Assembly (NCBI GenBank): GCA_964545075.1
Contig: CAZJFS010000003.1
Span: 18,661 to 82,660 of the forward strand
Origin: an uncultured bacterium
GTDB taxonomy: Bacteria; Muiribacteriota; UBA9980
DNA: 64,000 nucleotides
Direction: 5' to 3'
The notes beneath the pieces are model-generated. The model saw nothing but the letters and a program-made list of their open reading frames with translations. It had not been told where the DNA came from and made no database searches. Position numbers and translations under genes: made by a program. Shown piece by piece: positions 43,170 through 57,222 of the stretch (position 1 is the first letter of the stretch; each line of letters opens with the position of its first letter).

Positions 43170-44912
43170 TTAAAAAGGCAAGCGTTCGCATGAAAGATTA
43201 AAATATCCGTTAGAAGTTTTGTTTCGGCCGTATTTCGTGAAATCGATCGGCAGCGCTTTGGGAGTTTCAAGATTCGGCTGCTTTTTTATCTCGATTCCGG
43301 CGAAAAGCGAATAAATTCCGACGGCTATTCCTTCGGCTATCGCGTCCTGATTGTTTTTTAAAAGCATTCTGTCCTTCGAATTCGAAAGATATCCGATTTC
43401 GATAAAGGCGGTTATAGCGTTGGTGAAAAGGGGGATTGCCCAATCGGAAATAAACGGTTCACCGTGTTTTCCGAGTAATTCGTCGGCCTGGGCGTTCGCG
43501 GCGCCATAAAGCGAACTGAAATTATTCATAAGGGAGAGTCTTATAAATCTTATAAGTTCCTGGGACGAGTAGAAATTATCTCCGCCGTATCCTTCCGGAC
43601 CGCCCGATCTTTTATAGCACTCGTAAATCGAATTTTCGCGCATGAAAAAAAGAATGAATGAACTTAGCGGCGAATTGGTATTGTAGCGCCATGTGACCAT
43701 CAGGTACCGAAGTCCGATGAATTTATTCGTGAACGCGCGAAATCCTGTAAAATAGGTGGCGGTGTCTGATATAATTGTTCTGGTATCTATCGTGGAGAGC
43801 TTCTTGAACGTGGCGGTTATGAAGTCGGCGACCTGGCCGTAATTGTTTTCGCGGTTATACGTTTTATTTGGCGATGCTCCAGCGCCGCTGGCCGTTATGA
43901 GATTATTGACGTTTGAAAAAAACTGGAAATGAGGGGCTATGACCGCCGACATTCCGCGTGCGGACTTGCTGGGGCTTGAATTGACGTGAAGGCATACCAC
44001 CAGGTCGGGAGATATCTGGTTTATGTAGGAGATTCTGCCGAGAGCCATTTCAGCCGACGGCGTTTTTCCGTTAAACGATGCTGGACTGTCAAAAAGCCTG
44101 TATTTGTTGTTGATATTCGCAACATTTTTGTCGGGTTCACTGTCATGGCTAAATTTTCGGGTCAGGATGGAATTGATGCGCACGCGCCTTACCGTGGCTC
44201 CCGGATCGTTCATATATTTTTGAAGGATTTTTGCGAAATCTGAAAATCCTTTTTCCGTTTTCGTCAAGGCCAGAAGGGCGTCGACCTTTTTGGCCACCTG
44301 GAGCGTCCATTCATGTTCGTATATGCCGTTGCTTTGAGCGCCGAAATTGTACGGAAGAAGGAAAGTCTTCGAGAATGGGTCCCAGTGATCGCCGGAGTTG
44401 AACCTGGCGGGTTCGTACTTTCCGCCGTGGCCCGGGTCTAAAACTACCGAAAATGAATCCTGCTCGTCCGTTATATTTGGAGTTGCGGAAATTCCGGCGG
44501 TAGAGGCGGATGCCGGAATGGCGGGTTTGGAATATTTGGGCGCAAAATACGTGACGGGATTGACTTTGGGAGCTTCCGGCGCGTAATCAGCTGGTTTCAC
44601 TGTTCGCGGAACGTTTATGACCGGAGCTTTTTTGGCCGGCGGTATGTTTGAGATGGCCGGCGCTGAAGCGGCCGCACCCGCGTTGGCGTCATTTTGAGGA
44701 AGCGTCCCGTTTACGGGTACGGCGGCCGGGGAATCCTTTTTTAAAGGAAACTGAGGCGAAGGATGAGCGCTTTTCATTGCGTTAAGGCGGGCGCGAAGCG
44801 AGTCAATAAGCTCTTTTCTTTCGGAATTGATCTCGGCGCGGCAAAGCTGGGCTATCATAAGAGCTGCCGAAATGCTAAAAACGAGAGTCAAAAAAAATCT
44901 GGATCTTTTCAA
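43170..44912 (-). CDS. Secreted divergent Amidase_3 (N-acetylmuramoyl-L-alanine amidase-like) family protein, paralog A (580 aa)
   Basis: It has a signal peptide and a Pro/Ala-rich linker. The Amidase_3 Zn-ligand motifs VVLDPGHGG, GIYEHEWTLQVAKKV and DLVVCLHVNSS are present. Confidence 0.55.
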   Translation of the reverse strand: MKRSRFFLTLVFSISAALMIAQLCRAEINSERKELIDSLRARLNAMKSAHPSPQFPLKKDSPAAVPVNGTLPQNDANAGAAASAPAISNIPPAKKAPVINVPRTVKPADYAPEAPKVNPVTYFAPKYSKPAIPASASTAGISATPNITDEQDSFSVVLDPGHGGKYEPARFNSGDHWDPFSKTFLLPYNFGAQSNGIYEHEWTLQVAKKVDALLALTKTEKGFSDFAKILQKYMNDPGATVRRVRINSILTRKFSHDSEPDKNVANINNKYRLFDSPASFNGKTPSAEMALGRISYINQISPDLVVCLHVNSSPSKSARGMSAVIAPHFQFFSNVNNLITASGAGASPNKTYNRENNYGQVADFITATFKKLSTIDTRTIISDTATYFTGFRAFTNKFIGLRYLMVTWRYNTNSPLSSFILFFMRENSIYECYKRSGGPEGYGGDNFYSSQELIRFIRLSLMNNFSSLYGAANAQADELLGKHGEPFISDWAIPLFTNAITAFIEIGYLSNSKDRMLLKNNQDAIAEGIAVGIYSLFAGIEIKKQPNLETPKALPIDFTKYGRNKTSNGYFNLSCERLPF

Positions 44913-45028
44913 TTTAAAATTACCTCACAAATTCTGGTTTAATAAAGCTAGCAACGTACTCTATACTTTTTAAAATAAAAGATCAGGTTACAATCTTTTA
45001 TTTTGATTATTTTAACATAAAACTGAAT

Positions 45029-45346
45029 TTATTTCCATATAATATTTATTTTATCGCCGGGCATGAATTCGCCGGACATTACTTCCTGGCGGATAGAAGA
45101 GTTATCGTAAACCGTGTATTTATGATGCCCGCTTGGAAGCGATATCCAGTAACTGGTTTCGGCGAATATCTGCGTTTCGAGCTTTCCGTCTATATAAAGA
45201 AGGACGGTTTCGCTTCCGAGATTAGTAAAGGCCGAACTTGTCGCGGCGTCGCAGTCCTTCTCATCGTTGTCAAGAATACATCCTGAATCAATGAAAAGAA
45301 CAAGAAATAAAAATAGTATCAGTAACAGTTCCGTTTTTCTTAGCAT
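45029..45346 (-). CDS. Small hypothetical lipoprotein (105 aa)
   Basis: The signal carries a DSGC lipobox. It lies between the two amidase-like paralogs. Confidence 0.45.
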   Translation of the reverse strand: MLRKTELLLILFLFLVLFIDSGCILDNDEKDCDAATSSAFTNLGSETVLLYIDGKLETQIFAETSYWISLPSGHHKYTVYDNSSIRQEVMSGEFMPGDKINIIWK

Positions 45347-45368
45347 GCCTTCACTTTATGACATTAAA

Positions 45369-47090
45369 TTACTTCTGTTGTTTTAAAACCGATCTGAAAT
45401 AATCGCCGTATTTGGTCATGTTGATCTTTTGGCCGAGTGGAAATTCCAGGGGTTCCTTAGAATATACCGGCGGTTCGGGTTGGGCCGCTTTCTGAGTTTT
45501 TTTAACGGCGGAAGGTTTCATTTTACTTTTTAATTTATTTAAAAGTATTGAAGTTCTTGGTTTTTCAAAAAAATCGGTCCGCGCCGCCTTCGGCTGTATT
45601 GATTTGCCGTCCGTATTCTGGAGCGAGGCGGCCAGCCGAGGGTTTGTCTTTAGAAGTGCGTCTTTGGTGTTCGCTATTTTTCTGGGCGTCATGCCGCATA
45701 AAAGCGAATATACCGAAACCGCCATAGATCTTGCGATGACATCTTTTTTATTCACAAGGATATTTCTGTCTTCAGGGTTTTCGAGATATCCGAGTTCTAC
45801 GTAGGCGGTCACCGCGTTTATAAGCTGCGGCAGCGCCCAGTCGGATATGAAAGGACGGCCGTGGTTTCCAAGATATTCGTTCGGGGTTTTTACCGCCGCT
45901 ATTTCGCCGGCGGGTTTAGCGCATTTAGAAGCGTAGTCTTTCCACAGGCCCATGCGGACATATTTCAGAATTTCTTCTGACGCGTAAAAATTGTCGCCTC
46001 CAAATCCAAGCGGCCCGCCGTCGCGGCGCATGGATTCCTCGGCTGAGCGTTCGCGGTGCCAGTATGAATCGGGGTTTTTATAACTTAAAAGGTTGTTGTA
46101 TTCATCGTCTTCCGAGTAACGCCATTGGACCATCTGCCAGCGTTTTCCTATGCTGCCGCGTGTGGCGGTGCGTTTTCCGGTAAAATAGGTGTCACTGTCG
46201 TTTATAAGATCGGAAAGTTTTCCTAAAACCATGTTGTCATAGTAGAACCAGGAAAGAACCCAGAAATAAGTCATGGCTGATCTCATGCCAAGCCTGTCTT
46301 TAATGGTTTTAACGAAGTCGAATACGCGATATCCGGGTATTATTACGGATGCCGGGCCGCGCATGCCGTGATTGGTCGAAGAATTGACATGGACGCATAG
46401 AACCAGTTCGGGCGCTTCCGCATTGATTTTGCTCATTCGGCCGGGGAAAAGGTTTGGCGACGGCTGTTTTTTAGCATTGAAGCTTTCGGGAGAATCAAAT
46501 AGCCGGAAATGTTTGTCCGCATTGTCGTCGCCCTTGTACTTAAGAGATTCATAAGAATCCACGCGGCTCATTTTAACATTGAATTTTATTCGTCTGTATT
46601 CTTCAGGTTTCATTATGCCATATTCGGCCAGAATTCTGGAAAAGTCACGCCATCCTTCGTCGGTGTTGGCTTTTTGAAGTATATCGAACACTTTTGAACA
46701 GATATCTAAGACTATGGCGTGTTCGCATTCTCCATCGTAGGCCGCTCCGAAATTGTAGTTGGTTAAAAACCTTTTGGCTTTTATATCCCAATGGTCGCCT
46801 TTGTTTTGGGAAGCGCGTTCGGAGGTTCCGCCGTGGCCCGGATCTAAAACGATCCTGTATTCTTCGAGATCCGGCGTGCGTCGCGTGTCGTTTTTTGAAG
46901 ACAGATGTTCGCCATTCTGCCCGTCAGGCGAACTATAGTCAAATAGCCGCGCTATAAAATTATTTTTTAATGACATGTTCAATCCCGCCTGCGCCGGTGT
47001 GGAAATCGTCGCGCATATTAAAATGGCGGCTAAGACAGGGTTGAGTTTTATAAGGTTGGCAAAAATTTGACGCAGCTTCAAAAATAACAT
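45369..47090 (-). CDS. Secreted divergent Amidase_3-like family protein, paralog B (573 aa)
   Basis: The motifs IVLDPGHGG, GECEHAIVLDICSKV and ELVLCVHVNSS are present. It is collinear with paralog A, including the shared C-terminal segment ISDWA(I/L)P…GYL(S/E)N. Confidence 0.55.
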   Translation of the reverse strand: MLFLKLRQIFANLIKLNPVLAAILICATISTPAQAGLNMSLKNNFIARLFDYSSPDGQNGEHLSSKNDTRRTPDLEEYRIVLDPGHGGTSERASQNKGDHWDIKAKRFLTNYNFGAAYDGECEHAIVLDICSKVFDILQKANTDEGWRDFSRILAEYGIMKPEEYRRIKFNVKMSRVDSYESLKYKGDDNADKHFRLFDSPESFNAKKQPSPNLFPGRMSKINAEAPELVLCVHVNSSTNHGMRGPASVIIPGYRVFDFVKTIKDRLGMRSAMTYFWVLSWFYYDNMVLGKLSDLINDSDTYFTGKRTATRGSIGKRWQMVQWRYSEDDEYNNLLSYKNPDSYWHRERSAEESMRRDGGPLGFGGDNFYASEEILKYVRMGLWKDYASKCAKPAGEIAAVKTPNEYLGNHGRPFISDWALPQLINAVTAYVELGYLENPEDRNILVNKKDVIARSMAVSVYSLLCGMTPRKIANTKDALLKTNPRLAASLQNTDGKSIQPKAARTDFFEKPRTSILLNKLKSKMKPSAVKKTQKAAQPEPPVYSKEPLEFPLGQKINMTKYGDYFRSVLKQQK

Positions 47091-47257
47091 CCTTTCAAAA
47101 TTTTATTTATTATAAAAAAATACAAAATCATTCGGCATTGACTTCTGTTCATGCCGTTAAATAAAGACCTGATACCTATATCGGAGTAATATCCGAAAAA
47201 TGCAGGAATAAAATAAAAAAATCGGAACAATATCCGAAAAATTCGCGGCTGGAATAA

Positions 47258-47290
47258 AAAATCAGGACCGGCCGTGCGGTCCTGATTTTA
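47258..47290. terminator. Rho-independent terminator downstream of lexA (perfect 8-bp stem CAGGACCG/CGGTCCTG)
   Basis: The sequence is A6-CAGGACCGgccgtgCGGTCCTG-ATTTT. It is flanked by A/T runs on both sides. Confidence 0.65.
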
Positions 47291-47373: not shown

Positions 47374-48024
47374 TTAAGCCTGTTCCATGAAACGGGCTTT
47401 TCGTTCCATGGTTCGAATGACCGATATGACGCGCCCCAATATTTTGACGTCGTTGACATATATGGGCTGCATTTCACAGTTGGCTGGCTGCAGGCGGATC
47501 CGATCGTGCTCGCGGTAAAATCTTTTGAGCGTCGCCGTTTCGTTTTCAACGAGGGCTACGACGATGTCGCCATTAGCGGCATGGTTTTGTTTTCTGACAA
47601 GGACCATATCGCCGTCGTCGATGAGATCTTCGATCATGCTTTTTCCACGAACTTTCAGGATGAACGCTTCACCGTTTGTGAGAAGCGACCTGGCGACCTG
47701 GATGGTCTCCTGATAGTCTTCGTAAGCGAAAATCGGCTGTCCGGCGGCTATTTCGCCGATGACGGGGACTTCGATCAAATCGTCGCCGTGTGTGTCGGCG
47801 TATTGCCATCTGACGGGTTTTATGGAGCGTGATTTTCCCGAGGATTTTAAGATATGACCCTTTCTTTCAAGTTCCGAAAGGTGATAATGTATGGTTGAAG
47901 TTGATTTCGTTCCGATGAAAGTTCCGATCTCTTTTATGCTTGGGGCGGAGCCTGTGGTTTTCATTTCGGATACTATGAAGTCAAGGATCTGTTTCTGGCG
48001 CTCGGTAAGTTTTTCTATGGTCAT
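47374..48024 (-). CDS. lexA: LexA repressor (SOS regulator, S24 peptidase)
   Basis: The N-terminal wHTH reads LTERQKQILDFI. The Ala-Gly cleavage site reads IAAGQP. The catalytic Ser and Lys lie in …KVRGKSM… and …TLKRF…. The start was set at MTIEKL; the ORF track begins at 48054. Confidence 0.9.
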   Translation of the reverse strand: MTIEKLTERQKQILDFIVSEMKTTGSAPSIKEIGTFIGTKSTSTIHYHLSELERKGHILKSSGKSRSIKPVRWQYADTHGDDLIEVPVIGEIAAGQPIFAYEDYQETIQVARSLLTNGEAFILKVRGKSMIEDLIDDGDMVLVRKQNHAANGDIVVALVENETATLKRFYREHDRIRLQPANCEMQPIYVNDVKILGRVISVIRTMERKARFMEQA

Positions 48025-48057
48025 TATTATTTCACCCCTTGATAAAAAGTACACTCA

Positions 48058-48075
48058 TTCGAAAATATTTTCGAA
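48058..48075. promoter_or_regulatory. Putative LexA operator (perfect 18-bp palindrome TTCGAAAATATTTTCGAA; Cheo-box-like CGAA-N6-TTCG)
   Basis: The perfect palindrome was read from the sequence, 34 bp upstream of the lexA start. It resembles the Gram-positive-type SOS box CGAACnnnnGTTCG. Confidence 0.5.
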
Positions 48076-48156
48076 CGCATAAACTAATTTTATAAAAATT
48101 AGAAAATAAAGTCAAGACTTTTAAAAAAAAACATGAAAATAATGAAATTTATAGGC

Positions 48157-48184
48157 TTGATTTATATTTTAAATATGCTACAAT
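48157..48184 (+). promoter_or_regulatory. Sigma70-like promoter for the radical-SAM array (TTGATT-16bp-TACAAT)
   Basis: TTGATT at 48157-48162 and TACAAT at 48179-48184, about 120 bp upstream of the first radical SAM gene. Confidence 0.45.
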
Positions 48185-48306
48185 ATAAATTAACATAAAC
48201 ACGGGTCTTTATAAATTCACTCAATCATAAAAAGTCAAAGCTTTTTTATTTTAATTTTAGCGTTTTTCCAAATAATAGAACGCAAATTTTAAGACGGGAT
48301 AGTTAT

Positions 48307-49827
48307 ATGAAGAGGTCCGGTTATAAAATTTTACTTCTCGACGCCCCTCAATCCATCTGGAAATGGTTTGATGGTACTCTGCCTTCCCCGGCTCTGGCCA
48401 TATTCGCATCATATTTTAAAACCTTGTACGAACTTAAAATACTCGATCTGAATATCGAAAAAAAACCATGGACGCTTCTAAAAAAGGTGCTGGCTGAGTT
48501 CGAACCTGACCTTGTCGCGTTGCCATGCACGCACACATGCCATTTGAACGAGGTCGAAGCGAGCCTCCGGCTTATCAGGAAATTTTCGCCTAAGTCCGTT
48601 ATAATTGGCGGTGGAGTTCATTTCAACGTGTTTTATAAGGAGTTTCTAGAAAAGAACCTCGTTGATTTTGTATGTCTCGGTGAAGGCGAACTCACATTCA
48701 CCGAACTCGCCGGAGCTTTGAGCGATATACGCCGGAGCTATGGCACGCCATCGGCTGTTTCATTCGAAGAAAAAATAGGCCGTATTAAAAAAATAGACGG
48801 GCTGGCGTTTTCGGTGAACGATGAGATAATTAAAACCGGCGCGAGAAAACAGATCGAAAATCTGGATACGATACCTCTTCCGTCTTATGAGCTTTTTCAG
48901 ATGGAACGCTATAAAATTCCTATATACGGCGGAAACGAGACCTTTGGAATGACTTTCGGGCGCGGATGCCGCAACAGGTGCTGTTATTGCTCGGAGTCGT
49001 TCGGATGGAACTATACGCTTCGAAGAAATTCGCCGGCCTATGCCGTGAAGCATATCGAATTATTGCATAGCGTCTTTAACCGGCGGACCTTTATTTTCGC
49101 CGACACTGATTTTCTCGTCGATAAAAAATGGTGCGAGGAATTCGTGGCCATTATTAAAGAAAAGAAGTTGAAGATAAATTTTCATATCCAGACGGCGTGC
49201 AGGACGCTTTTGAAAAATGTGGAGCTGCTTCCGAAATTGAAAGAAATAGGCCTGTTTGAAGTAATGCTCGGAACGGAGTCCCCGTTTCAGAAAGTTCTGG
49301 ATAAATTGAAAAGTTTTCCCCAGAGCGTAGAGATAATGACGAATGCCATGAAAGCGGTTAAAGGCAACGGTCTTCTTCTTATGGCGATGATGTTTTGGGG
49401 GACCGAATATGACGATGCTCAGACGCTGCGGCAGGGCCTTAAATTTTTTGATAAGTACGCGGATATAGTATGCCCAAATGCCATGACGCCTTATCCGGGA
49501 ACGCCCCTTTACAATGAATTGACGGAGAAAGGCGTTATTCGCGTTGACGACCTTTCGCTCTACGATCAATCTCATATAATAGTACCCGCCGGAAACATGA
49601 GTTATGCTCAGACGCGCTGGGCATTCGAAAAGGAGCTCATACTGCACTTTAATTTCAATCCTAAATTTTATATGGGGCTTTTTTCGAAAAACAGGTTTTT
49701 ACGGACTAATTATTGGCATTATTTAAAACTGATATGGATGCAGGCTTTCGAAGGGCTTATGTCGCCGGTCAAATACAGGAAGGAATTATACGCTAAGAGC
49801 GAGTTCGATAAAATAATGGGGTCATAG
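48307..49827 (+). CDS. B12-binding-domain radical SAM protein, paralog 1 (506 aa)
   Basis: The N-terminal Rossmann-like B12-binding-type domain reads KILLLDAP…GGGVHFN…GEGE. The rSAM motif GCRNRCCYCSES is Cx3Cx2C. A shared C-terminal domain carries MMxWGTE and TPYPGTPLY. Confidence 0.75.
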   Translation: MKRSGYKILLLDAPQSIWKWFDGTLPSPALAIFASYFKTLYELKILDLNIEKKPWTLLKKVLAEFEPDLVALPCTHTCHLNEVEASLRLIRKFSPKSVIIGGGVHFNVFYKEFLEKNLVDFVCLGEGELTFTELAGALSDIRRSYGTPSAVSFEEKIGRIKKIDGLAFSVNDEIIKTGARKQIENLDTIPLPSYELFQMERYKIPIYGGNETFGMTFGRGCRNRCCYCSESFGWNYTLRRNSPAYAVKHIELLHSVFNRRTFIFADTDFLVDKKWCEEFVAIIKEKKLKINFHIQTACRTLLKNVELLPKLKEIGLFEVMLGTESPFQKVLDKLKSFPQSVEIMTNAMKAVKGNGLLLMAMMFWGTEYDDAQTLRQGLKFFDKYADIVCPNAMTPYPGTPLYNELTEKGVIRVDDLSLYDQSHIIVPAGNMSYAQTRWAFEKELILHFNFNPKFYMGLFSKNRFLRTNYWHYLKLIWMQAFEGLMSPVKYRKELYAKSEFDKIMGS

Positions 49828-49840
49828 CGTAAGCATATAT

Positions 49841-51367
49841 ATGAAGAATCAGGAATATAAAATACTTCTGGTCGACGCCCCTGAAAGGCTTTCACTCTGG
49901 TTCGACGGAACGATCCCCTCGCCGGCGCTTTCCATACTCGCGTCCTACGTTAAAACCAGATACGAGCTGAAGGTGCTGGACCTGAATATTGAAGAGCGGC
50001 CGTGGAACGTTTTGAAAATGGCGCTGGATGAATTTAAACCTCACCTGATCGGGCTTTCATGCACCCATACATGCCAGATGAACGAAGTAATGGCCGTCGC
50101 CCGGCTCGTCAGAAGATTTTCGCCTTCATCGCTTATCGTCGGAGGCGGAATATATTTCAGCGTTTTTCATGAAGAAGCTATTTGCGATGGATTGATCGAT
50201 ATAGCGGTAATAGGCGAAGGAGAAATGACGTTTTCCGCTCTCGCTAAAACGTTAAGCGCCATAGAGGCTGAAAGGAAAGCGGGAGCGCAAATTACGCGGG
50301 CGGATATCTCGCGAAGGCTTGAAACGATTGATGGGCTGGCGTTCAAAGACGAAACGGGTTCGATAATTAAGAGCTCGCCAAGAAAATATATTGAAAATCT
50401 CGATTCGATACCGTTCCCCTCTTATGAACTCTATCCGATCGATAAATATAAATCGCCCACTTTCGGAGGCGGCGAGGCATTCGGAATGACGTTCTCGCGC
50501 GGATGCGCCAACAGATGTTATTTCTGTTCCGAATCCGCCGGATGGAACCATACGCTCAGGCGCCATTCGCCCGAATACGCGGTGCGCCATCTGGAGATCA
50601 TATACCGCAACTACGGCCGCAGGGTATTCGTTTTCGGCGATACGGACTTTTTGTCGGATAAAAAATGGTGCGAAGATTTTATCGCCCTGATAAAAGCGAA
50701 AAAAATAACGATAAATTTTCATGTGCAGGCTTCGTGCAATTCTGTCATTAAAAACGAGGAGCTCCTTCCGAAACTGAAAGAAATAGGTCTTTTCGAGGTT
50801 ATGATCGGAGCTGAATCGCCGTTTCAAAAGATACTCTCTAAATTGAAAAAGCCATACAGCGATAAGGAAACGGTCGTCGGGGCGATGGAGCGCGTAAAAA
50901 AACACGGGCTTTTACTTATGGCGATGCTTGTCTGGGGAACCGAGTTCGACGACGAAAGCACGCTGCACGAAGGACTTTATTTTTTTGATAAATACGCTGA
51001 TATCGTCTGTCCCTGCCTTTTGACGCCTTATCCCGGTACGGAGCTATACGATGAGATGAAGTCGAAGGGACATATTAATGTCGCCGATTTCGCCTTCTAC
51101 GACCAGGCTCATGTTATAGTTCCCGCGGGTAATATGAGCTATAAGGAGACAAGGCGGGTGTATGAGAAGGAACTTTGCCTCTATTTCAATCTTAACCCGA
51201 AATTTTATATGAAGCTTCTTTCAAAAGACGCTTTTATGAGGATGAACCAGGCGGCGTTCTTTAAGATGGTATGGGCCCGCACGTTCGAGTGCGTCACAAG
51301 CCAGGGCGGCTATAAAAAGGACCTTTTTAACAACAGCGAGTATCTTAAGCTAATGAACATGAGGTGA
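49841..51367 (+). CDS. B12-binding-domain radical SAM protein, paralog 2 (508 aa)
   Basis: It is collinear with paralog 1 (KILLVDAPE…; GCANRCYFCSES; TPYPGTELY). It starts 13 bp after paralog 1. Confidence 0.75.
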   Translation: MKNQEYKILLVDAPERLSLWFDGTIPSPALSILASYVKTRYELKVLDLNIEERPWNVLKMALDEFKPHLIGLSCTHTCQMNEVMAVARLVRRFSPSSLIVGGGIYFSVFHEEAICDGLIDIAVIGEGEMTFSALAKTLSAIEAERKAGAQITRADISRRLETIDGLAFKDETGSIIKSSPRKYIENLDSIPFPSYELYPIDKYKSPTFGGGEAFGMTFSRGCANRCYFCSESAGWNHTLRRHSPEYAVRHLEIIYRNYGRRVFVFGDTDFLSDKKWCEDFIALIKAKKITINFHVQASCNSVIKNEELLPKLKEIGLFEVMIGAESPFQKILSKLKKPYSDKETVVGAMERVKKHGLLLMAMLVWGTEFDDESTLHEGLYFFDKYADIVCPCLLTPYPGTELYDEMKSKGHINVADFAFYDQAHVIVPAGNMSYKETRRVYEKELCLYFNLNPKFYMKLLSKDAFMRMNQAAFFKMVWARTFECVTSQGGYKKDLFNNSEYLKLMNMR

Positions 51368-51373
51368 GCCGAT

Positions 51374-52870
51374 ATGAAAGTATTGTTTTTAGACCCGATC
51401 CATAAGGTTTGGGAGTTTTTCAGGGGACTGACCGCGAATCCGGCGCTTATATACCTTGCAGCCGTGGCGCGCCGCGATTTTGACGTAAAGGTATACGACG
51501 CTTACGCCGAATCGGGCAGGCCGTGGAATAAAACCGCGGAATATCTTGAAAAAGAGCGCCCTGACGTCGTTTGTCTTCCCGGCTCGATCCCGGCTTTCTG
51601 GTACGATGTTCTCAACTGCGCGCGCCTGGTGCGCGAGATTCTTCCTGACGCAAAGATCGTCACCGGCGGTTATATCTCAAATCAGTTGTGGCGCGATGGA
51701 CTCGCGAGCGGCCATATCGATTATATAGTTATTGGCGAGGGCGAGGTCACGATGATGGAATTATTGAAGGCTATAAATGGCGGCGCGTCCGGTTTAGCCG
51801 AAATTAAGGGGCTCGCATATCTCAAGGACGGCAAACCTTTCCAGACGGCTGAACGCGGTTTCATAGAGGATCTCGACACGCTTCCGCTGCCGGCTTATGA
51901 TCTGTTTCCGATGCACCGCTATTCTCTGGCACCGTTCGGCGGCAATATCGGCTTTACAGCGACATTCGCGCGCGGATGTACCGGCCGCTGCAAGTTCTGT
52001 TCGGAAACGCTTCTGTGGCGTCATTGCTGGCGGGGCCACAGCGCCGAATATATGGTCGAGGCGCTTTCACTGCTTAGGTACAAATATAACAAGCGGGTGT
52101 TTTATATAGGCGACGACGATTTTTTACACGATCCTGAGCGCACCGAAAAATTCACGGAACTTATACTGAAAAATAAGATCGACATTAAAATGTGGATACA
52201 GACCACCTGCCATAACGTGGTCAGGAACGCGAAATTGCTGGCGGGCCTTAAAAAGGCTGGCGTCTATCAGATTATGGTGGGCATCGAAACGCCTAAGCCA
52301 AAGGGCCTGAAAGTGCTTAACAAGCCTCAGGACTTCGACCTTGTAATGCGCGCGCTCGAAGCGCTGAAACCCCACGAATTCATAATAATGGGCATGATGA
52401 TGTGGGGAACGCCATGGGATACGAAGCAGGACCTGATCGATAATCTCGAATTTCTGGACGAGCACTGCGATATAATCGGCCCCGACGCTGTTACGCCATG
52501 GCCTGGAACGCCTTATTATGACGAGTGTGAAAAGATGGGCGCGATCGAAGTGCGCGACCTCACGCAATACGATATGACAAACTGCATAACCCGCACGGCC
52601 GAACTTTCGGCTGCCGAGTCCGATTTCTATTACAAAAAAACCGTCGGAAAACATCTCATATTCAACAAAAAATTCCTGGGCAACTATTTATTTTCCAAGA
52701 AGCCGCTCTACAGGACATACGTGAATATGTTCGTGAAGATGGGCTGGAGTTTTTTCACTATGAAGCCGTGGACGCAGAAGAACTATCAGAGTTTCGACGA
52801 ATTCTATCCTGAATTTATCGCTAAAAAGACTGCCTATGAAATGCAGAAAACCGGCGTTATGGCGCGTTGA
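51374..52870 (+). CDS. B12-binding-domain radical SAM protein, paralog 3 (498 aa)
   Basis: The N-terminus is MKVLFLDPIHKVWEFF… and the rSAM motif is GCTGRCKFCSET. It starts 6 bp after paralog 2. Confidence 0.75.
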   Translation: MKVLFLDPIHKVWEFFRGLTANPALIYLAAVARRDFDVKVYDAYAESGRPWNKTAEYLEKERPDVVCLPGSIPAFWYDVLNCARLVREILPDAKIVTGGYISNQLWRDGLASGHIDYIVIGEGEVTMMELLKAINGGASGLAEIKGLAYLKDGKPFQTAERGFIEDLDTLPLPAYDLFPMHRYSLAPFGGNIGFTATFARGCTGRCKFCSETLLWRHCWRGHSAEYMVEALSLLRYKYNKRVFYIGDDDFLHDPERTEKFTELILKNKIDIKMWIQTTCHNVVRNAKLLAGLKKAGVYQIMVGIETPKPKGLKVLNKPQDFDLVMRALEALKPHEFIIMGMMMWGTPWDTKQDLIDNLEFLDEHCDIIGPDAVTPWPGTPYYDECEKMGAIEVRDLTQYDMTNCITRTAELSAAESDFYYKKTVGKHLIFNKKFLGNYLFSKKPLYRTYVNMFVKMGWSFFTMKPWTQKNYQSFDEFYPEFIAKKTAYEMQKTGVMAR

Positions 52871-53003
52871 TATCTTATTCGCCGGCCTTTTCGCGCGCGG
52901 CAGGATTTTTTCAGGCCGTTTATAAAAAGGTCCTTCATAGTTTAATGACTGATCGCTTTAACGGTAACAAGTATTTTAAGTTAATGGATATGGGGTGATT
53001 GGA

Positions 53004-54497
53004 ATGAAAGTATTATTTTTGGATCCACTGCATAAGGTTTGGGAATTTTTTCGTGGACTTACGGCTTCGCCGGCTCTTATATATCTTGCCGCCGTGGCGC
53101 GTCGCGAATTCGACGTAAGAGTATTTGACGCATCCATGGAGTCCAAGGATCCGTGGAACAGGACCGCGGAATATCTCTTGCGCGAAAGGCCCGACGTGGT
53201 TTGTATAACCGGCTCTATAACCGGTTTCTGGAATGATTCGCAGAACGCCGCGAAGCTCGTGCGCGAAACGCTTCCGGAAACCAGGATAATAACCGGCGGC
53301 TATATTGCCTCGCGTCTCTGGAATGAAGCGCTTCAAAGCGGGTTTTTCGATTTCGTCGTCATAGACGAAGGCGAACTGACTTTGCTTGAATTACTGAGCG
53401 CGCTCAATTCAAATTCCTCGGCGGATTATTCAAAGATAAGAGGGCTCGCTTATTTGGAAAAAGGCGTCCCCCGAAAAAACGTGGACCGTGAATTTATAGC
53501 CGATCTGGATACATTGCCGCTGCCGGCTTATGATATGTTCCCGATGGATCGTTATTCGCTGGCGCCATTCGGCGGTCACATCGGTTTCGCGCTCAGCTTC
53601 AACCGCGGCTGTCAGAACAAATGCAAATTCTGCTCCGAGACGCTTCAATGGAAACATATGTGGCGCGGACACGGCGCCGAATATATGGTTGAAGTTTTAG
53701 AGCTATTGAATAAAAAATATAATAAAAAAGTTTTTTACGTCGGCGACGATGATTTTTTACACGACCGTGAGCGCACTATAAAATTCATAGAACTCATGGA
53801 CAAAAAGAAGCTCGATATAAAAATGTGGATACAGACCACATGCTATAGCGCTATCGCGAATGTAGACCTTTTAGCGGGGTTAAAACGCATAGGCGTCCAC
53901 CAGTTCATGATGGGGATCGAAACGCCGAAACCGCTGGGAATGAAAAATCTCAACAAGCCACAAAACATCGATATCGTCATGAAAGCGCTCGAAACGGTCA
54001 AGCCGTTCGGATTCATTATGATGGGAATGCTTATGTGGGGCGCGCCCTGGGATAAAAAGGAAGACCTCGATTACGCTCTCGATTTTCTCGGCAAACATTG
54101 CGATATCATCGGGCCGAACGCCACCACTCCCTGGCCTGGAACGCCATATTACGATGAATGTGAAAAGATGGGCGCGATCGAAGTGCGAGACCTTACCAAA
54201 TATGACATGACCAACGTCATAACCAGGACCGCCGAACTTTCGGCCGCCGAAGCCGATTTTTACTACAAGAAGACGGTCGGAAAATTTTTGATGCTCAATA
54301 AGAAATTTCTTGGAAATTACATGTTTTCAAAAAAACCGCTCTATCGTGAATATATAAATATGTTCGTCAAGATGGGCTGGCGTTTCTTTATAATGAAACC
54401 CTGGTATCAGAAGAATTATCAGCCTTTCGAAGAGTTTTATTACGATTTTATCGCGAAAAAAGCGTCGGTGAAAATGACCGCGCAGCTTGTGAAATGA
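53004..54497 (+). CDS. B12-binding-domain radical SAM protein, paralog 4 (~497 aa)
   Basis: The N-terminus is MKVLFLDPLHKVWEFF… and the rSAM motif is GCQNKCKFCSET. It is about 70% identical to paralog 3 by eye. It follows a 133-bp gap. Confidence 0.75.
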   Translation: MKVLFLDPLHKVWEFFRGLTASPALIYLAAVARREFDVRVFDASMESKDPWNRTAEYLLRERPDVVCITGSITGFWNDSQNAAKLVRETLPETRIITGGYIASRLWNEALQSGFFDFVVIDEGELTLLELLSALNSNSSADYSKIRGLAYLEKGVPRKNVDREFIADLDTLPLPAYDMFPMDRYSLAPFGGHIGFALSFNRGCQNKCKFCSETLQWKHMWRGHGAEYMVEVLELLNKKYNKKVFYVGDDDFLHDRERTIKFIELMDKKKLDIKMWIQTTCYSAIANVDLLAGLKRIGVHQFMMGIETPKPLGMKNLNKPQNIDIVMKALETVKPFGFIMMGMLMWGAPWDKKEDLDYALDFLGKHCDIIGPNATTPWPGTPYYDECEKMGAIEVRDLTKYDMTNVITRTAELSAAEADFYYKKTVGKFLMLNKKFLGNYMFSKKPLYREYINMFVKMGWRFFIMKPWYQKNYQPFEEFYYDFIAKKASVKMTAQLVK

Positions 54498-56017
54498 GGA
54501 TACTTTTTTTAGATCCGCCACACGCGCCATGGGATTTTTTTCCGGGCCGAATGCCTTCGCCGGGCCTTATGGCCATTGTTCCGTTCGCCGTAGGCGCGGG
54601 ATGCGACGTGGCCGTGCTCGATTTATCGCTTGAGATCGATCCGGCGGCGGCACTTGAAAAAAAGGCCGCCTCGTTCGCGCCGGACGTCGTGGCGATATCC
54701 GGCTCTAAATCGGCTTTCGCATTCGAGACGGCGAACGCCGCCATGCTTGCTCGAAAGTTCCTTCCCGCGGCGGTTATAACGGGCGGCGGAAATTTCGCTT
54801 CGTCATACGCCGGCGACCTCGTTTCGCGCGGGCTATTCGATATAATAATAAAAGGCGAAGGAGAACTTCCTTTTTCGGCCATTTTAAAGGCCCTGAAAAA
54901 AAACAAGCCGGAAGATATAAAAGCTATAGCGGGCCTCATATATTCAAAAGAAATGATGGCTTTCCCAAAAAGTTACCGCAAGCGGCTTTCCGGGATTTTT
55001 TCAAAATTTGAGATTTCGCGGGCCGAAGGGTTCCGTTCATGCGCGAATGTTTTTGACCGAGAAAAAATTTTTGAGTTCGAAGATACCGGTTCCGCCGAAT
55101 TTATAGCGGATATGGATACGCTGCCGCTTCCAGCTTTCGAATATTTCGACATGGATAGTTATACGCTGCCGCCGCTCGGCGGGAAAACCGGCTTCGTTCA
55201 AAGCTTCAGCCGGGGATGCGGAAAGCGCTGTTCGTTCTGCGCCGATTCGCTCTTCTGGGGGCATACCTGGCGAGGCTTTTCGGCCGAACGGTGCGTTGAA
55301 ATATTAAAGACCCTCTCGTCCGCGTATGGCCGCCGGATAATTTATTTCGGCGACGCCGACTTTTTCTGGAACCGGAACCGGAACCTTAAATTTTTAGAGC
55401 TCCTCGAAAAAGAAAGGGAAGCCGGCGGGCTTAAAATAAATTTCTGGCTGCAGAGTTCCGTCGATAATATATTGGCGAATCGCGATCTTTTGAAAAGGTA
55501 TCGTAAAGCCGGCTTGTATCAAATAATGTGCGGCTTTGAAAGCGTTTCTGGCGCCGCCCAGAGCGCTTTCAAAAAGGTCCATTCTATCGATAAAATGACG
55601 GAGGCGGCGCGAGCGGTGAAAAACGCAGGCATAATAATCATGGGGATGATGATGTGGGGCGATTACGGCGACGACGAAATAACGCTCGGCGAGAACCTCG
55701 ATTTTCTGGTAAAAAACTGCGACGTTATAGGGCCTAACACAGTGACCCCTCATTACGGCACGCCGTATTTCGAAGAATGCGAAAAGCGCGGCCTGGTCAC
55801 GAAATATTCGACGCTTGGAAGCGACCAGTGCTACGTCATCATGCCGACTTACTCGCTCGATATTTCCGGCGCGGAAAAAGTTTATAAAGACATGGTTTTA
55901 AAGACCCTGATATCGAAAAAAAAGTTCATAGGGAACTATCTTTCCGCTCCCGGGCTCAGGATAAAAAAAATTCTTTCAGATCTTATCGAAAATGGATATG
56001 AGGGGAAAGCGTCATGA
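54494..56017 (+). CDS. B12-binding-domain radical SAM protein, paralog 5 (507 aa, most divergent)
   Basis: The N-terminus is MRILFLDPPHAPWDFF… and the rSAM motif is GCGKRCSFCADS. The C-terminal region carries MMMWGD and TPHYGTPYF. Its start overlaps the paralog 4 stop by 4 bp (ATGA). Confidence 0.75.
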   Translation: MRILFLDPPHAPWDFFPGRMPSPGLMAIVPFAVGAGCDVAVLDLSLEIDPAAALEKKAASFAPDVVAISGSKSAFAFETANAAMLARKFLPAAVITGGGNFASSYAGDLVSRGLFDIIIKGEGELPFSAILKALKKNKPEDIKAIAGLIYSKEMMAFPKSYRKRLSGIFSKFEISRAEGFRSCANVFDREKIFEFEDTGSAEFIADMDTLPLPAFEYFDMDSYTLPPLGGKTGFVQSFSRGCGKRCSFCADSLFWGHTWRGFSAERCVEILKTLSSAYGRRIIYFGDADFFWNRNRNLKFLELLEKEREAGGLKINFWLQSSVDNILANRDLLKRYRKAGLYQIMCGFESVSGAAQSAFKKVHSIDKMTEAARAVKNAGIIIMGMMMWGDYGDDEITLGENLDFLVKNCDVIGPNTVTPHYGTPYFEECEKRGLVTKYSTLGSDQCYVIMPTYSLDISGAEKVYKDMVLKTLISKKKFIGNYLSAPGLRIKKILSDLIENGYEGKAS

Positions 56018-57222
56018 AATTTATGGATGATCTTTTTAGGACGGGATATTTTTTAAATTTCAGCGAAAAATTATTTCTATATCTTATAAAATTCATGACG
56101 CTCGTATTCGCCGTTATTTATTATTTTCATTATGCTTTTGTCATCGACCCCACATTCAATAAGTTTTTATTTTTATATTTTTTGACTTTCATAGTCTCGG
56201 GTTTTTTCTTCACTCTTCTTCCGCTGAAAGACGAATGGATATGCGCGCTGGAATTTTTCAAAATCCAGGCAGGGCTTTACAATGCGGATAAAAAGTTATA
56301 CGAAATTGCATCGGAAAAACTCGCCGTGGAAGCGAAAATAACGAGAGATGAATCGGCTGAAGCGCTCGCTGGTTCCTTCGCCAGCTTTAAAAGCGATTAT
56401 TTCATAGTTTACCCTGCCTGGTTCGCCGTATTGGCGATGACGTTCGTCATCGAGGCGTTTGTCTTCGTGAAGTTGGATCCGCTTCTTGTCCAGAAAAATT
56501 TTGCCGTTCTTTCGGCTTTTCTGACCCTCGTCCATGTGTCGGCGATGAATTCGACATTTGAAAATTTTTCCGGCCTTCCCGGCTCTACTCACTCAGGATT
56601 TTCGATTCTTCTGGTGTGCCTCTTCGCCGTCCGTTCCGTGTTTTTCGCGATTCTTTATAGAAACGCGTGTTTTCAAGTTGCGATCGCCCTGATTCTGACT
56701 TATTTCTTCGGTAAATTATTCGCGCTTTTATATTACGGAGATGGGTTTCAGATATTCGTCAGGACTCGCGACAGGAACATATGGCGGATGGCTTTCGACG
56801 CGCGCATGACGCGCGTTGTAGAATGCGAAAAGCTTCCATTTACGATGAAATGCCGTTTTCTTAAAACGCCCTATTCGACCGCTATAGCTTTTTATGAATC
56901 GGGTGCGCGCGTTTCCGAATTTCATTTCACTCCTTACCGGCTTGGAGTTGAAAAAGAAAGCGTGGAAACGGCGGCCAGGATTTTCGCCGAGCGGCTTAAG
57001 ATCAGCGACGGCTTAAAGGCCACGGGAAGCGTTGCCGATCTTTTCGAAGAGATTACGCTGCTCGACCTGGCGAGAAAATACGGCCGCGAACAGACCGCAG
57101 TGAGCGTTTCGCTGATCGCGTCATCTTATCTTATGTGTTATGAACTTTTTCTCATTTATACGGGGGCGAATTCGCCTAACGATAATTATTTCGAGATCAT
57201 CAAAGTGATTTTGGGATTCTGA
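56014..57222 (+). CDS. Hypothetical polytopic membrane protein (N-terminal ~6 TM helices plus a C-terminal soluble domain), translationally coupled to the rSAM array
   Basis: Its start overlaps the paralog 5 stop by 4 bp. The N-terminal half is hydrophobic, the C-terminal 170 aa are charged and soluble, and no family is recognised. Confidence 0.55.
   Translation: MKFMDDLFRTGYFLNFSEKLFLYLIKFMTLVFAVIYYFHYAFVIDPTFNKFLFLYFLTFIVSGFFFTLLPLKDEWICALEFFKIQAGLYNADKKLYEIASEKLAVEAKITRDESAEALAGSFASFKSDYFIVYPAWFAVLAMTFVIEAFVFVKLDPLLVQKNFAVLSAFLTLVHVSAMNSTFENFSGLPGSTHSGFSILLVCLFAVRSVFFAILYRNACFQVAIALILTYFFGKLFALLYYGDGFQIFVRTRDRNIWRMAFDARMTRVVECEKLPFTMKCRFLKTPYSTAIAFYESGARVSEFHFTPYRLGVEKESVETAARIFAERLKISDGLKATGSVADLFEEITLLDLARKYGREQTAVSVSLIASSYLMCYELFLIYTGANSPNDNYFEIIKVILGF

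What the first reader, a model, noticed from the sequence alone, without database searches (positions are those of the whole stretch)
47374..48306. lexA sits divergently against the radical-SAM array with a perfect Cheo-like palindrome in the shared intergenic region
LexA is complete, with its wHTH, AG cleavage site and S24 Ser/Lys dyad. It lies head-to-head with the first radical SAM gene. The 250-bp shared region contains a perfect 18-bp palindrome TTCGAAAATATTTTCGAA (48058-48075), similar to the GAAC-N4-GTTC SOS box. The palindrome lies 34 bp upstream of lexA, so autoregulation is the minimal interpretation. The same region carries a strong sigma70-like promoter facing the rSAM array (48157-48184). 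SOS control of the array is therefore conceivable and would be unusual for a lipid or secondary-metabolite pathway.
Basis: partly seen in the sequence, partly recalled or inferred. Interest (0 to 1): 0.5.

Follow-up and report, generated by a model that had tools for sequence, protein, structure and literature searches.

The report
LexA self-operator, not rSAM control
The palindrome is very probably the site where the DNA-damage repressor LexA shuts off its own gene in an uncultured Wallbacteria bacterium; it is ordinary biology with a slightly unusual recognition sequence, and nothing supports control of the neighbouring radical-SAM genes.

Summary
lexA (47374-48024, minus strand) is complete, and the perfect 18-bp palindrome TTCGAAAATATTTTCGAA lies at 48058-48075, 33 nt upstream of its ATG.

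As a bare palindrome it is only weakly beyond chance. The convincing evidence is comparative:
- The core TCGA-(8 A/T-rich nt)-TCGA sits in the lexA promoter of 9 of 10 LexA lineages (50-91% identical). It usually lies just after the -10 of a TTGACx-17-TAnAAT promoter, sometimes with a second copy in the spacer.
- In 241 kb of Wallbacteria-clade DNA, all 17 strong motif hits are at lexA promoters.
- None of these promoters has the canonical GAAC-N4-GTTC box. The site reads CGAAA-N4-TTTCG, which matches the Firmicutes/Actinobacteria box at 12 of 14 positions.

So it is most likely a lexA auto-operator with a variant motif.

SOS control of the radical-SAM array is not supported:
- The box lies on the lexA side of two back-to-back promoters, 81 bp beyond the array's -35.
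- lexA has a different upstream neighbour in every relative examined.
- Three orthologous Wallbacteria arrays lie elsewhere and carry no box.

Whether the motif also precedes recA, uvrA or error-prone polymerase genes could not be settled with the scans available.

The parts
47374..48024 (-). lexA coding sequence (216 aa, ATG start at 48024)
   Evidence: Pfam LexA_DNA_bind plus Peptidase_S24. TIGR00498 equivalog at 215 bits against a cutoff of 111. AG cleavage site and Ser/Lys dyad are invariant in the alignment.
48032..48039 (-). Shine-Dalgarno sequence AGGGGTGA, 7 nt upstream of the lexA ATG
   Evidence: Read directly from the sequence.
48058..48075 (.). Predicted LexA operator TTCGAAAATATTTTCGAA (core TCGA-N8-TCGA), at about +5 to +22 of the lexA transcript
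   Evidence: Perfect palindrome. Conserved in position and core in the lexA promoters of 9 of 10 lineages. PWM score 24.4 bits; it is the only hit of 22 bits or more in the 64-kb window.
48087..48115 (-). lexA promoter TTGACT-17-TAAAAT (-35 at 48110-48115, -10 at 48087-48092)
   Evidence: Best promoter-like site in the region, 10 of 12 matches. The same TTGACx-17-TAnAAT architecture precedes the box in the orthologues.
47253..47285 (-). Intrinsic terminator after lexA (stem UCAGGACCG/CGGUCCUGA followed by UUUUUUAUU). A second terminator-like hairpin lies at 47222-47237.
   Evidence: The MFE fold of the lexA 3' flank shows a 13-bp stem-loop followed by a U run. The second hairpin was listed by the terminator scan. 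lexA therefore appears to be monocistronic.
48157..48184 (+). Promoter-like site facing the rSAM array (TTGATT-16-TACAAT, with TG before the -10). It is not overlapped by the operator.
   Evidence: 81 bp separate the end of the box (48075) from the start of this -35 (48157).
48307..57222 (+). Neighbouring array of five B12-binding radical SAM paralogues (48307-56017) plus a 402-aa protein with no family match (56014-57222). It is a neighbour, not part of the lexA unit.
   Evidence: Pfam B12-binding plus Radical_SAM in all five. All are below every NCBIfam equivalog cutoff. The family is nearly confined to Wallbacteria.

Best explanation
The window comes from an uncultured bacterium that NCBI labels Candidatus Wallbacteria. 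The 18-bp palindrome is the operator through which LexA represses its own monocistronic gene.

Proposed mechanism:
1. A LexA dimer binds the dyad TCGAA(A/T)-N4-(A/T)TTCGA. The dyad lies just downstream of the -10 of a near-consensus sigma-70 promoter, at about +5 to +22.
2. Bound LexA blocks open-complex formation or promoter escape.
3. After DNA damage, RecA-stimulated self-cleavage at Ala94-Gly95 by the Ser129/Lys167 dyad relieves repression.

The motif has the geometry of the Firmicutes/Actinobacteria box (T)CGAAC-N4-GTTCG(A). An A/T pair replaces the inner C/G of each half-site.

The radical-SAM array next door has its own promoter outside the reach of this operator. Its position beside lexA is a species-specific gene-order accident.

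Shown here: the gene, the motif, its conservation and position, and the lack of conserved linkage to the array. Inferred: that LexA is the protein that binds the motif, and that binding represses transcription.
For: **The protein is a complete LexA.**
- It has both domains, an equivalog-level score and the catalytic residues.

**The box is conserved at lexA promoters.**
- TCGA-N8-TCGA with an A/T-rich spacer occurs within 110 nt upstream of lexA in the window and in L006, L008, L010, L012, L135, L136/L147, L138, L139/L158 and L159. These LexA proteins are 50-91% identical, and the flanking DNA is otherwise unalignable.
- The chance expectation is about 6e-4 per region at this composition (my arithmetic on the data).
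- L006, L008, L138 and L159 carry two or three copies. Tandem sites are common at lexA promoters (Verrucomicrobia: PMC4951493).

**Its position is conserved.**
- The box starts 5-12 nt after the -10 of a TTGACx-17-TAnAAT promoter, or sits inside the 17-nt spacer.

**The motif is specific to lexA promoters.**
- In a PWM scan of 241,156 bases of clade DNA, all 17 hits of 22 bits or more are at lexA promoters. The next best hit scores 18.8 bits.
- None of these promoters has GAAC-N4-GTTC.
- CGAAAATATTTTCG matches CGAACATATGTTCG at 12 of 14 positions (direct comparison). The canonical motif is cited from PMC4951493.

**An unbiased search recovers the same promoters.**
- A promoter-plus-box search of JGI metagenomes gave 21 hits. 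Five were lexA promoters of this clade. Two were promoters of a small ORF next to a phage-type integrase. SOS-controlled mobile elements would look like this.

**Evidence against control of the array.**
- Geometry.
- lexA has different upstream neighbours in the relatives: a dCMP deaminase, Fur, T2SSF, a co-directional 741-aa gene, peptidase M28 and others.
- Orthologous arrays in L160, L161 and L162 are not near lexA and have no box.
Against: - No binding or expression data exist. LexA as the binding protein is inferred from the general rule of lexA autoregulation and from similarity to known boxes.
- No copy of the motif was found upstream of a canonical SOS gene. None of the fetched DNA contains recA, uvrA or a recognised error-prone polymerase gene.
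- A composite pattern was scanned against 185,579 GTDB species genomes. It required the box 215-275 nt upstream of the codons for the RecA Walker-A motif. It found only two Clostridia and no Wallbacteria. This is a weak negative, because the distance window was narrow and an all-A/T spacer was required.
- L137 (54% identical LexA) has two TCGA-N7-TCGA sites instead of N8, so the spacing is not universal in the wider clade.
- The palindrome by itself is only weakly beyond chance.
Confidence: 0.78

Rival explanations
1. The single LexA site controls both divergent units, so the radical-SAM array belongs to the SOS regulon of this organism. Three routes are imaginable: the weak + strand promoter-like site that overlaps the box, interference between the divergent promoters, or supercoiling coupling.
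For: - lexA and the first rSAM gene share one 282-bp region.
- A 9-of-12 promoter-like site on the + strand (TTGATA-16-GAAAAT, 48039-48066) has its -10 inside the box. If it is active, LexA would occlude it.
Against: - That site is no better than chance. Six promoter-like sites were found in 1.5 kb against 3.6 +/- 1.9 in shuffles. Its -35 sits in the lexA ribosome-binding region.
- The better array promoter (48157-48184, with a TG-extended -10) lies 81 bp beyond the box.
- There is no second box in the intergenic region or near the array.
- The adjacency is absent in all eight other lexA loci whose upstream gene could be seen.
- Three orthologous arrays have no box.
Confidence: 0.07
2. The dyad is the operator of a different transcription factor that regulates lexA in this clade. 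LexA itself would then recognise some other sequence.
For: - The motif was not found at any canonical SOS gene (inconclusive).
- The same 16-mer type occurs beside canonical Cheo-type boxes in non-Wallbacteria DNA. Examples are the recA promoters of two Clostridia (L133, L134) and a plasmid-like contig (L140). This could point to a separate factor.
Against: - No alternative conserved dyad, and no GAAC-N4-GTTC, is present in the lexA promoters.
- The motif has the length, symmetry and half-site of the known Firmicutes/Actinobacteria LexA box, differing at one position per half-site.
- lexA autoregulation is near-universal (established knowledge; for example PMC4951493 and the references in PMC8565304).
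- Co-occurrence with Cheo boxes fits equally well with LexA-type proteins binding both forms.
Confidence: 0.1
3. The palindrome acts as an RNA hairpin in the lexA 5' leader, affecting stability or translation, or it is a chance product of AT-rich DNA.
For: - It lies inside the predicted transcript, and the terminator scan flagged it as a stem.
- Perfect 18-bp palindromes are not rare: 0.53 are expected per window.
Against: - The predicted hairpins are weak, at -3.2 to -6.5 kcal/mol.
- In the orthologues only the TCGA arms are conserved. Spacers such as AAAAAAAT are not self-complementary, and there are no compensatory changes.
- In several orthologues a copy lies in the untranscribed -35/-10 spacer.
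- Conservation across 9 lineages excludes chance.
Confidence: 0.03

Closest known systems
Firmicutes/Actinobacteria LexA box: Cheo box CGAACRNRYGTTYC in Bacillus subtilis; TCGAAC-N4-GTTCGA in Mycobacterium tuberculosis
   Same: - A 14-16 bp inverted repeat with a 4-nt A/T-rich centre.
- The outer CGAA/TTCG and the flanking T/A are identical, giving 12 of 14 matches to CGAACATATGTTCG.
- It lies at the lexA promoter next to the -10.
- Tandem copies occur at some lexA promoters.
   Different: The inner C/G of GAAC/GTTC is A/T in all sites collected here, and no canonical box is present in any of the 10 lineages. From my memory of mutational work on B. subtilis LexA (Groban et al. 2005, not re-read here), this position is required for binding. 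The recognition helix reads STSTIHYHL in the clade.
Verrucomicrobia LexA motif TGTTC-N4-GAACA (PMC4951493)
   Same: It is another phylum-specific derivative of the GAAC-N4-GTTC architecture. It was defined first by comparative genomics of lexA, recA and imuA promoters, and it shows tandem sites at lexA promoters.
   Different: That motif was confirmed by EMSA and mutagenesis and was found at recA and imuA. Here only lexA promoters, and possibly two integrase-adjacent promoters, carry the motif, and nothing has been tested experimentally.
[quoted passage not shown] 2003, cited in PMC8565304)
   Same: It is a precedent for a LexA operator that is present at lexA but not at recA. Failure to find the box at recA therefore does not refute a LexA operator.
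   Different: The motif and phylum differ. In Geobacter the result was established experimentally.

Membership tests
LexA repressor (TIGR00498; Pfam PF01726 + PF00717) | N-terminal winged-helix LexA DNA-binding domain | tested here: met
   PF01726 at residues 4-66, E 2.3e-20, 72.6 bits against a cutoff of 23.7.
LexA repressor (TIGR00498; Pfam PF01726 + PF00717) | C-terminal S24 peptidase domain with the Ser/Lys catalytic dyad and the Ala-Gly cleavage site | tested here: met
   PF00717 at residues 87-200, E 3.7e-34. A94, G95, S129 and K167 are invariant in the 12-sequence alignment.
LexA repressor (TIGR00498; Pfam PF01726 + PF00717) | Whole-protein score above the curated equivalog cutoff | tested here: met
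   215.4 bits against a cutoff of 110.95.
LexA repressor (TIGR00498; Pfam PF01726 + PF00717) | RecA-stimulated self-cleavage after DNA damage | not testable with these tools
   Needs biochemistry.
LexA operator (SOS box) | Dyad-symmetric site overlapping or abutting the core promoter of the regulated gene | tested here: met
   The box at 48058-48075 starts 12 nt after the -10 (48087-48092) of the best promoter in the region.
LexA operator (SOS box) | Conservation of the site in orthologous lexA promoters | tested here: met
   9 of 10 lineages carry TCGA-N8-TCGA, and one carries N7 variants. All 17 PWM hits of 22 bits or more in 241 kb are at lexA promoters.
LexA operator (SOS box) | The same motif upstream of other core SOS genes (recA, uvrA/B, error-prone polymerases) | tested here: inconclusive
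   No such gene lies in the window or the fetched loci. The recA-anchored scan of GTDB genomes found no Wallbacteria hit, but it covered only a 60-nt distance range. The metagenome promoter-plus-box scan found only lexA and two integrase-adjacent promoters.
LexA operator (SOS box) | Specific binding by LexA in vitro or in vivo | not testable with these tools
   Needs EMSA, footprinting or ChIP.
Canonical Cheo box (GAAC-N4-GTTC) | GAAC and GTTC tetranucleotides as half-sites | tested here: not met
   The window site has GAAA/TTTC. No GAAC-N4-GTTC occurs within 160 nt upstream of any of the 13 lexA genes examined.
Canonical Cheo box (GAAC-N4-GTTC) | Inverted repeat with a 4-nt spacer between pentameric half-sites | tested here: met
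   CGAAA-ATAT-TTTCG. The same register holds in the orthologues.
SOS regulon membership of the rSAM array | Operator positioned to occlude the array's promoter | tested here: not met
   81 bp separate the box from the -35 at 48157. There is no second box in 48025-48306 or in the array.
SOS regulon membership of the rSAM array | Box conserved upstream of orthologous arrays, or conserved linkage to lexA | tested here: not met
   L160, L161 and L162 are arrays of 3-4 paralogues, with a 414-aa partner in L160 and L162. They have no box and no lexA within 10 kb. Part of the L160 upstream region is masked by N.

The most novel reading that the evidence does not exclude
Wallbacteria LexA has shifted its specificity from GAAC-N4-GTTC to GAAA/T-N4-A/TTTC. 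This may follow from the Gly-to-Tyr change in the recognition helix (HGH to HYH). Its regulon may be very small, consisting of lexA plus integrative mobile elements rather than recA. In this one species, derepression of the strong lexA promoter would also raise transcription of the back-to-back radical-SAM operon, through the box-overlapping upstream promoter or through supercoiling coupling. That would tie a lineage-specific B12/radical-SAM pathway of unknown product to DNA damage.
Probability: 0.06. Interest if true: 0.55.

Novelty: new variant of a known kind. Interest (0 to 1): 0.22.

Why it matters
LexA-binding motifs differ between phyla and are used to reconstruct SOS regulons from genomes. 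A candidate motif for the uncultured Wallbacteria, TCGAA-N6-TTCGA, would allow this reconstruction once complete MAGs are scanned. The motif is the Gram-positive box with its most conserved C/G replaced. It adds one more data point on how LexA specificity drifts while the dyad geometry is kept.

This is incremental. lexA autoregulation itself is textbook biology, and the potentially surprising part, SOS control of a radical-SAM pathway, is not supported.

Tried and rejected
1. **Degenerate box scans of the public collections.**
A genome-wide census of the box is therefore not possible with this tool.
2. **recA-anchored composite pattern.**
   - The pattern was the box, 215-275 nt, then the codons for GPESSGKTT.
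   - It was then run on GTDB genomes with a T as separator. Only two Clostridia recA promoters matched and no Wallbacteria.
3. **Promoter-plus-box pattern on metagenomes.**
   - It gave 21 hits. Five were lexA promoters.
   - Most of the rest carry a different motif, ATCGATAATATTATCGA, upstream of 220-227-aa proteins that look like GntR-family regulators by eye (not scanned against Pfam) or upstream of a small unknown protein. These are unrelated.
4. **Other copies in the window.** The sites at 3593-3610 and 37953-37970 lie inside coding regions, and their number is at or below chance. I rejected them as operators.
5. **Genes next to lexA in L137.** I considered that the two genes might be imuA/imuB. 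They have no Pfam hits on record, their translated sequences gave no sign of that identity by eye, and no box lies upstream of them. Rejected.
6. **Riboswitch or other RNA element.** A search of the rSAM leader and lexA flanks found nothing in Rfam apart from one sub-threshold chance hit.
7. **RNA-hairpin reading of the palindrome.** Rejected because the energies are weak and there is no covariation.
8. **Literature.** No paper in the held library links Wallbacteria and LexA.

Full report
**1. What is in the sequence**

The stretch 47374-48024 (minus strand) encodes a 216-aa protein.
- It matches Pfam LexA_DNA_bind at residues 4-66 and Peptidase_S24 at residues 87-200.
- It scores 215 bits against the NCBIfam lexA equivalog model, whose cutoff is 111.
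- In an alignment with eleven other LexA proteins, the Ala-Gly cleavage site (A94-G95) and the Ser129/Lys167 dyad are invariant.

The mechanical ORF begins at GTG 48054. The ATG at 48024 is the likely start, because AGGGGTGA lies 7 nt upstream and the orthologues start at the equivalent residue.

The perfect palindrome TTCGAAAATATTTTCGAA is at 48058-48075, 33 nt from that ATG. Five paralogous B12-binding radical SAM genes run in the opposite direction from 48307 to 56017. The shared intergenic region is 282 bp.

**2. Is the palindrome more than chance?**

On its own, barely.
- The window holds two perfect palindromes of 18 bp or more. The other one, at 5228-5245, lies inside a gene.
- A first-order Markov model of the window predicts 0.53.
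- A model of the 22%-GC intergenic region yields such a palindrome in about 2% of trials.
- Relaxed copies elsewhere in the window (3593-3610, 37953-37970) are inside coding regions, and their number is at or below expectation.

**3. Origin of the window**

- The first rSAM protein is 100% identical to an NCBI entry named Candidatus Wallbacteria bacterium (P0121).
- The closest named LexA, at 73% identity, carries the same label.
- Contigs identical at the lexA locus occur in anaerobic-digester metagenomes (L001-L005).

**4. Comparative evidence for an operator**

I fetched the lexA loci of relatives whose LexA is 50-91% identical to this one or to each other.

- *Conservation.* In nine of ten distinct lineages a TCGA-N8-TCGA dyad with an A/T-rich spacer lies within about 110 nt upstream of lexA, in DNA that is otherwise unalignable.
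- *Architecture.* A TTGACx-17-TAnAAT promoter is followed 5-12 nt later by the box. L006, L008 and L159 have a second copy inside the 17-nt spacer. In L138 the promoter-proximal copy lies in the spacer and a second copy lies upstream of the -35. L159 has a third copy further upstream.
- *The window's own promoter.* TTGACT-17-TAAAAT at 48115-48087 (-) is the best promoter-like site of the region, with 10 of 12 matches. It places the box at about +5 to +22.
- *Specificity.* I built a PWM from twelve sites (consensus TATCGAAAATATTTTCGATA, 20.7 bits). Scanned over 241,156 bases of clade DNA, it gives 17 hits of 22 bits or more, all at lexA promoters. The next best hit scores 18.8 bits.
- *The exception.* L137 (54% identical LexA) has two TCGA-N7-TCGA sites instead.
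- *No canonical box.* None of the promoters contains GAAC-N4-GTTC.

**5. What the motif is like**

Aligned on its centre, CGAAAATATTTTCG differs from the Bacillus consensus CGAACATATGTTCG only at the symmetric fifth and tenth positions. With its flanks it mirrors the mycobacterial TCGAAC-N4-GTTCGA. The canonical motifs are cited from PMC4951493; the mycobacterial and Bacillus consensus strings are from my own knowledge.

Strictly, though, the defining GAAC/GTTC is not met.

The recognition helix reads STSTIHYHL in the clade. A link between this Gly-to-Tyr change and the altered half-site is only a conjecture.

**6. RNA-hairpin alternative**

- The predicted stems are weak, at -3.2 to -6.5 kcal/mol.
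- Only the TCGA arms are conserved, not complementarity of the spacer.
- Some copies lie in untranscribed promoter spacers.

This points to a protein-binding dyad in DNA.

**7. lexA is a separate transcription unit**

A 13-bp GC-rich stem followed by UUUUUUAUU lies about 90 nt after the stop codon, and a second terminator-like hairpin follows it.

**8. Does the operator reach the radical-SAM array?**

- *Geometry.* The array-facing promoter-like site TTGATT-16-(TG)cTACAAT at 48157-48184 starts 81 bp beyond the box. The lexA promoter lies between them. The two promoters are back to back and the box is on the far, transcribed side of lexA's. No other box, even a degenerate one, lies in the intergenic region or the array.
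- *One overlapping site.* A weak + strand promoter-like site (48039-48066, 9 of 12 matches) does overlap the box. Such matches are at chance level in this AT-rich stretch: 6 were found against 3.6 +/- 1.9 expected.
- *Gene order on the downstream side.* The genes downstream of lexA are conserved in most close relatives. They are an Amidase_3-like protein, a small protein and a second amidase, followed in L012 by GAF, CN_hydrolase and RnfC, as in the window.
- *Gene order on the upstream side.* The upstream neighbour is different each time: a dCMP deaminase, Fur, T2SSF, a co-directional 741-aa gene, peptidase M28 and others.
- *The array elsewhere.* The rSAM family is almost confined to Wallbacteria: 20 proteins score 546 bits or more, then the scores drop to 158 bits. 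In three other genomes the array has 3-4 paralogues, and two of them also have a conserved 414-aa partner. These arrays sit behind pilus/T2SS genes or other genes, and no lexA lies within 10 kb. No box is visible upstream of them, although part of the L160 upstream region is masked.
- *No riboswitch.* No Rfam riboswitch lies in the 120-nt leader.

SOS control of the array is therefore unsupported on both geometric and comparative grounds.

**9.

This test could not be completed.
- The window and the fetched loci hold no recA, uvr or recognised translesion-polymerase genes.
- A composite pattern required the box 215-275 nt upstream of the RecA Walker-A codons. In 185,579 species genomes it found only two Clostridia.
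- A promoter-plus-box pattern on JGI metagenomes gave 21 hits:
  - five lexA promoters of this clade;
  - two related contigs (L146, L151) where the exact box GTTCGAAAATATTTTCGA follows a strong promoter in front of a 48-aa ORF, immediately after a phage-type integrase gene;
  - one plasmid-like contig (L140);
  - unrelated motifs for the rest.

Absence at recA would not refute a LexA operator. [quoted passage not shown] The assignment of the box to LexA nevertheless remains an inference.

**10. Verdict**

The finding is real. Its conservative half is right: this is a lexA auto-operator, with a motif variant not described for this uncultured phylum in the papers I could search. The interesting half, an SOS-controlled radical-SAM pathway, is not supported. 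This is a modest, incremental result.

Noticed in passing
L133 2048-2357 (-) and L134 810-1118 (+): In two Clostridia MAGs (Eubacteriales, uncultured Clostridium) the recA promoter carries an identical 20-mer AATCGAATATATTTTCGATT just upstream of the -35. It also carries a canonical Cheo box, CGAACAAATGTTC, next to the ribosome-binding site. Both elements are conserved while the flanking DNA diverges. The TCGA-N8-TCGA dyad therefore also occurs in an SOS context outside Wallbacteria. What binds it there is unknown.
   Followed up: partly
L140 5610-5661 (+): This is a plasmid-like contig (55% GC) with an actin-like ALP/ParM gene nearby. Its promoter has a Cheo-like box, GCGAACATATATTC, in the -35/-10 spacer. 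After the -10 it has TCGAAAATATTTTCGA, the same 16-mer as the window. The promoter lies upstream of a 315-aa protein with a sigma-70 region 4 domain.
   Followed up: partly
L146 (match 4203-4260, -) and L151 1523-1580 (+): Two related metagenome contigs come from the same sample as a Wallbacteria-type lexA (L147). In both, the exact box GTTCGAAAATATTTTCGA follows a TTGACT-17-TATAAT promoter in front of a conserved 48-aa ORF, directly after a phage-type integrase gene (Pfam PF00589 in L151). The cargo is variable: an SDH-type protease, a DNA methylase, DUF1828/DUF1829 and DUF6978. This may be an SOS-controlled integrative element. The host is not established.
   Followed up: partly
window 48307-57222; L160 10001-17433; L162 10001-17396; L161 10001-14916: The tandem B12-binding radical SAM paralogues form a family almost confined to Wallbacteria: 20 homologues score 546 bits or more, then the scores drop to 158 bits. 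They fall below every NCBIfam equivalog cutoff; the best partial match is BchE. In the window, L160 and L162 they are followed by a conserved 402-414-aa protein with no Pfam or NCBIfam match. The product of the pathway is unknown.
   Followed up: partly
window 43170-47090 (-); L006 11032-15434; L010 11047-13963; L012 3285-5438; L135 2458-4629; L136 1251-5236: The gene order lexA, large Amidase_3-like protein, ~100-aa protein, second Amidase_3 protein is conserved across the close relatives, although lexA has its own terminator and no box precedes the amidase gene. It recalls the cell-wall or division genes found beside lexA in Bacillus (yneA) and Mycobacterium (chiZ); that comparison is from my own knowledge. 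I did not test it.
   Followed up: no
window 5228-5245: A second perfect 18-bp palindrome, GTTGTCGACGTCGACAAC, lies inside the ORF at 4733-5794 (+).
   Followed up: no
window 47374-47405 (C-terminus of LexA); alignment A1 columns 219-229: The Wallbacteria-clade LexA proteins carry an extra C-terminal tail of about 10 residues (MERKARFMEQA and similar). It is absent from the Chloroflexi, Firmicutes and Saccharimonadales LexA proteins in the alignment.
   Followed up: no
L137 6976-7023: In a more distant, GC-richer lineage (54% identical LexA) the lexA promoter has two TCGA-N7-TCGA sites, TTTCGATGGAATTTCGA and ATTCGATTCATTTTCGA, instead of N8. The spacing of the dyad may differ within the wider clade.
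   Followed up: no
L141, L144 and L154 (matches listed): A different palindrome, ATTATCGATAATATTATCGA, sits right after the -10 upstream of 220-227-aa proteins that look like GntR-family regulators by eye (not scanned against Pfam). It occurs in three unrelated metagenome contigs and is probably the auto-operator of that regulator family. It is unrelated to LexA.
   Followed up: no
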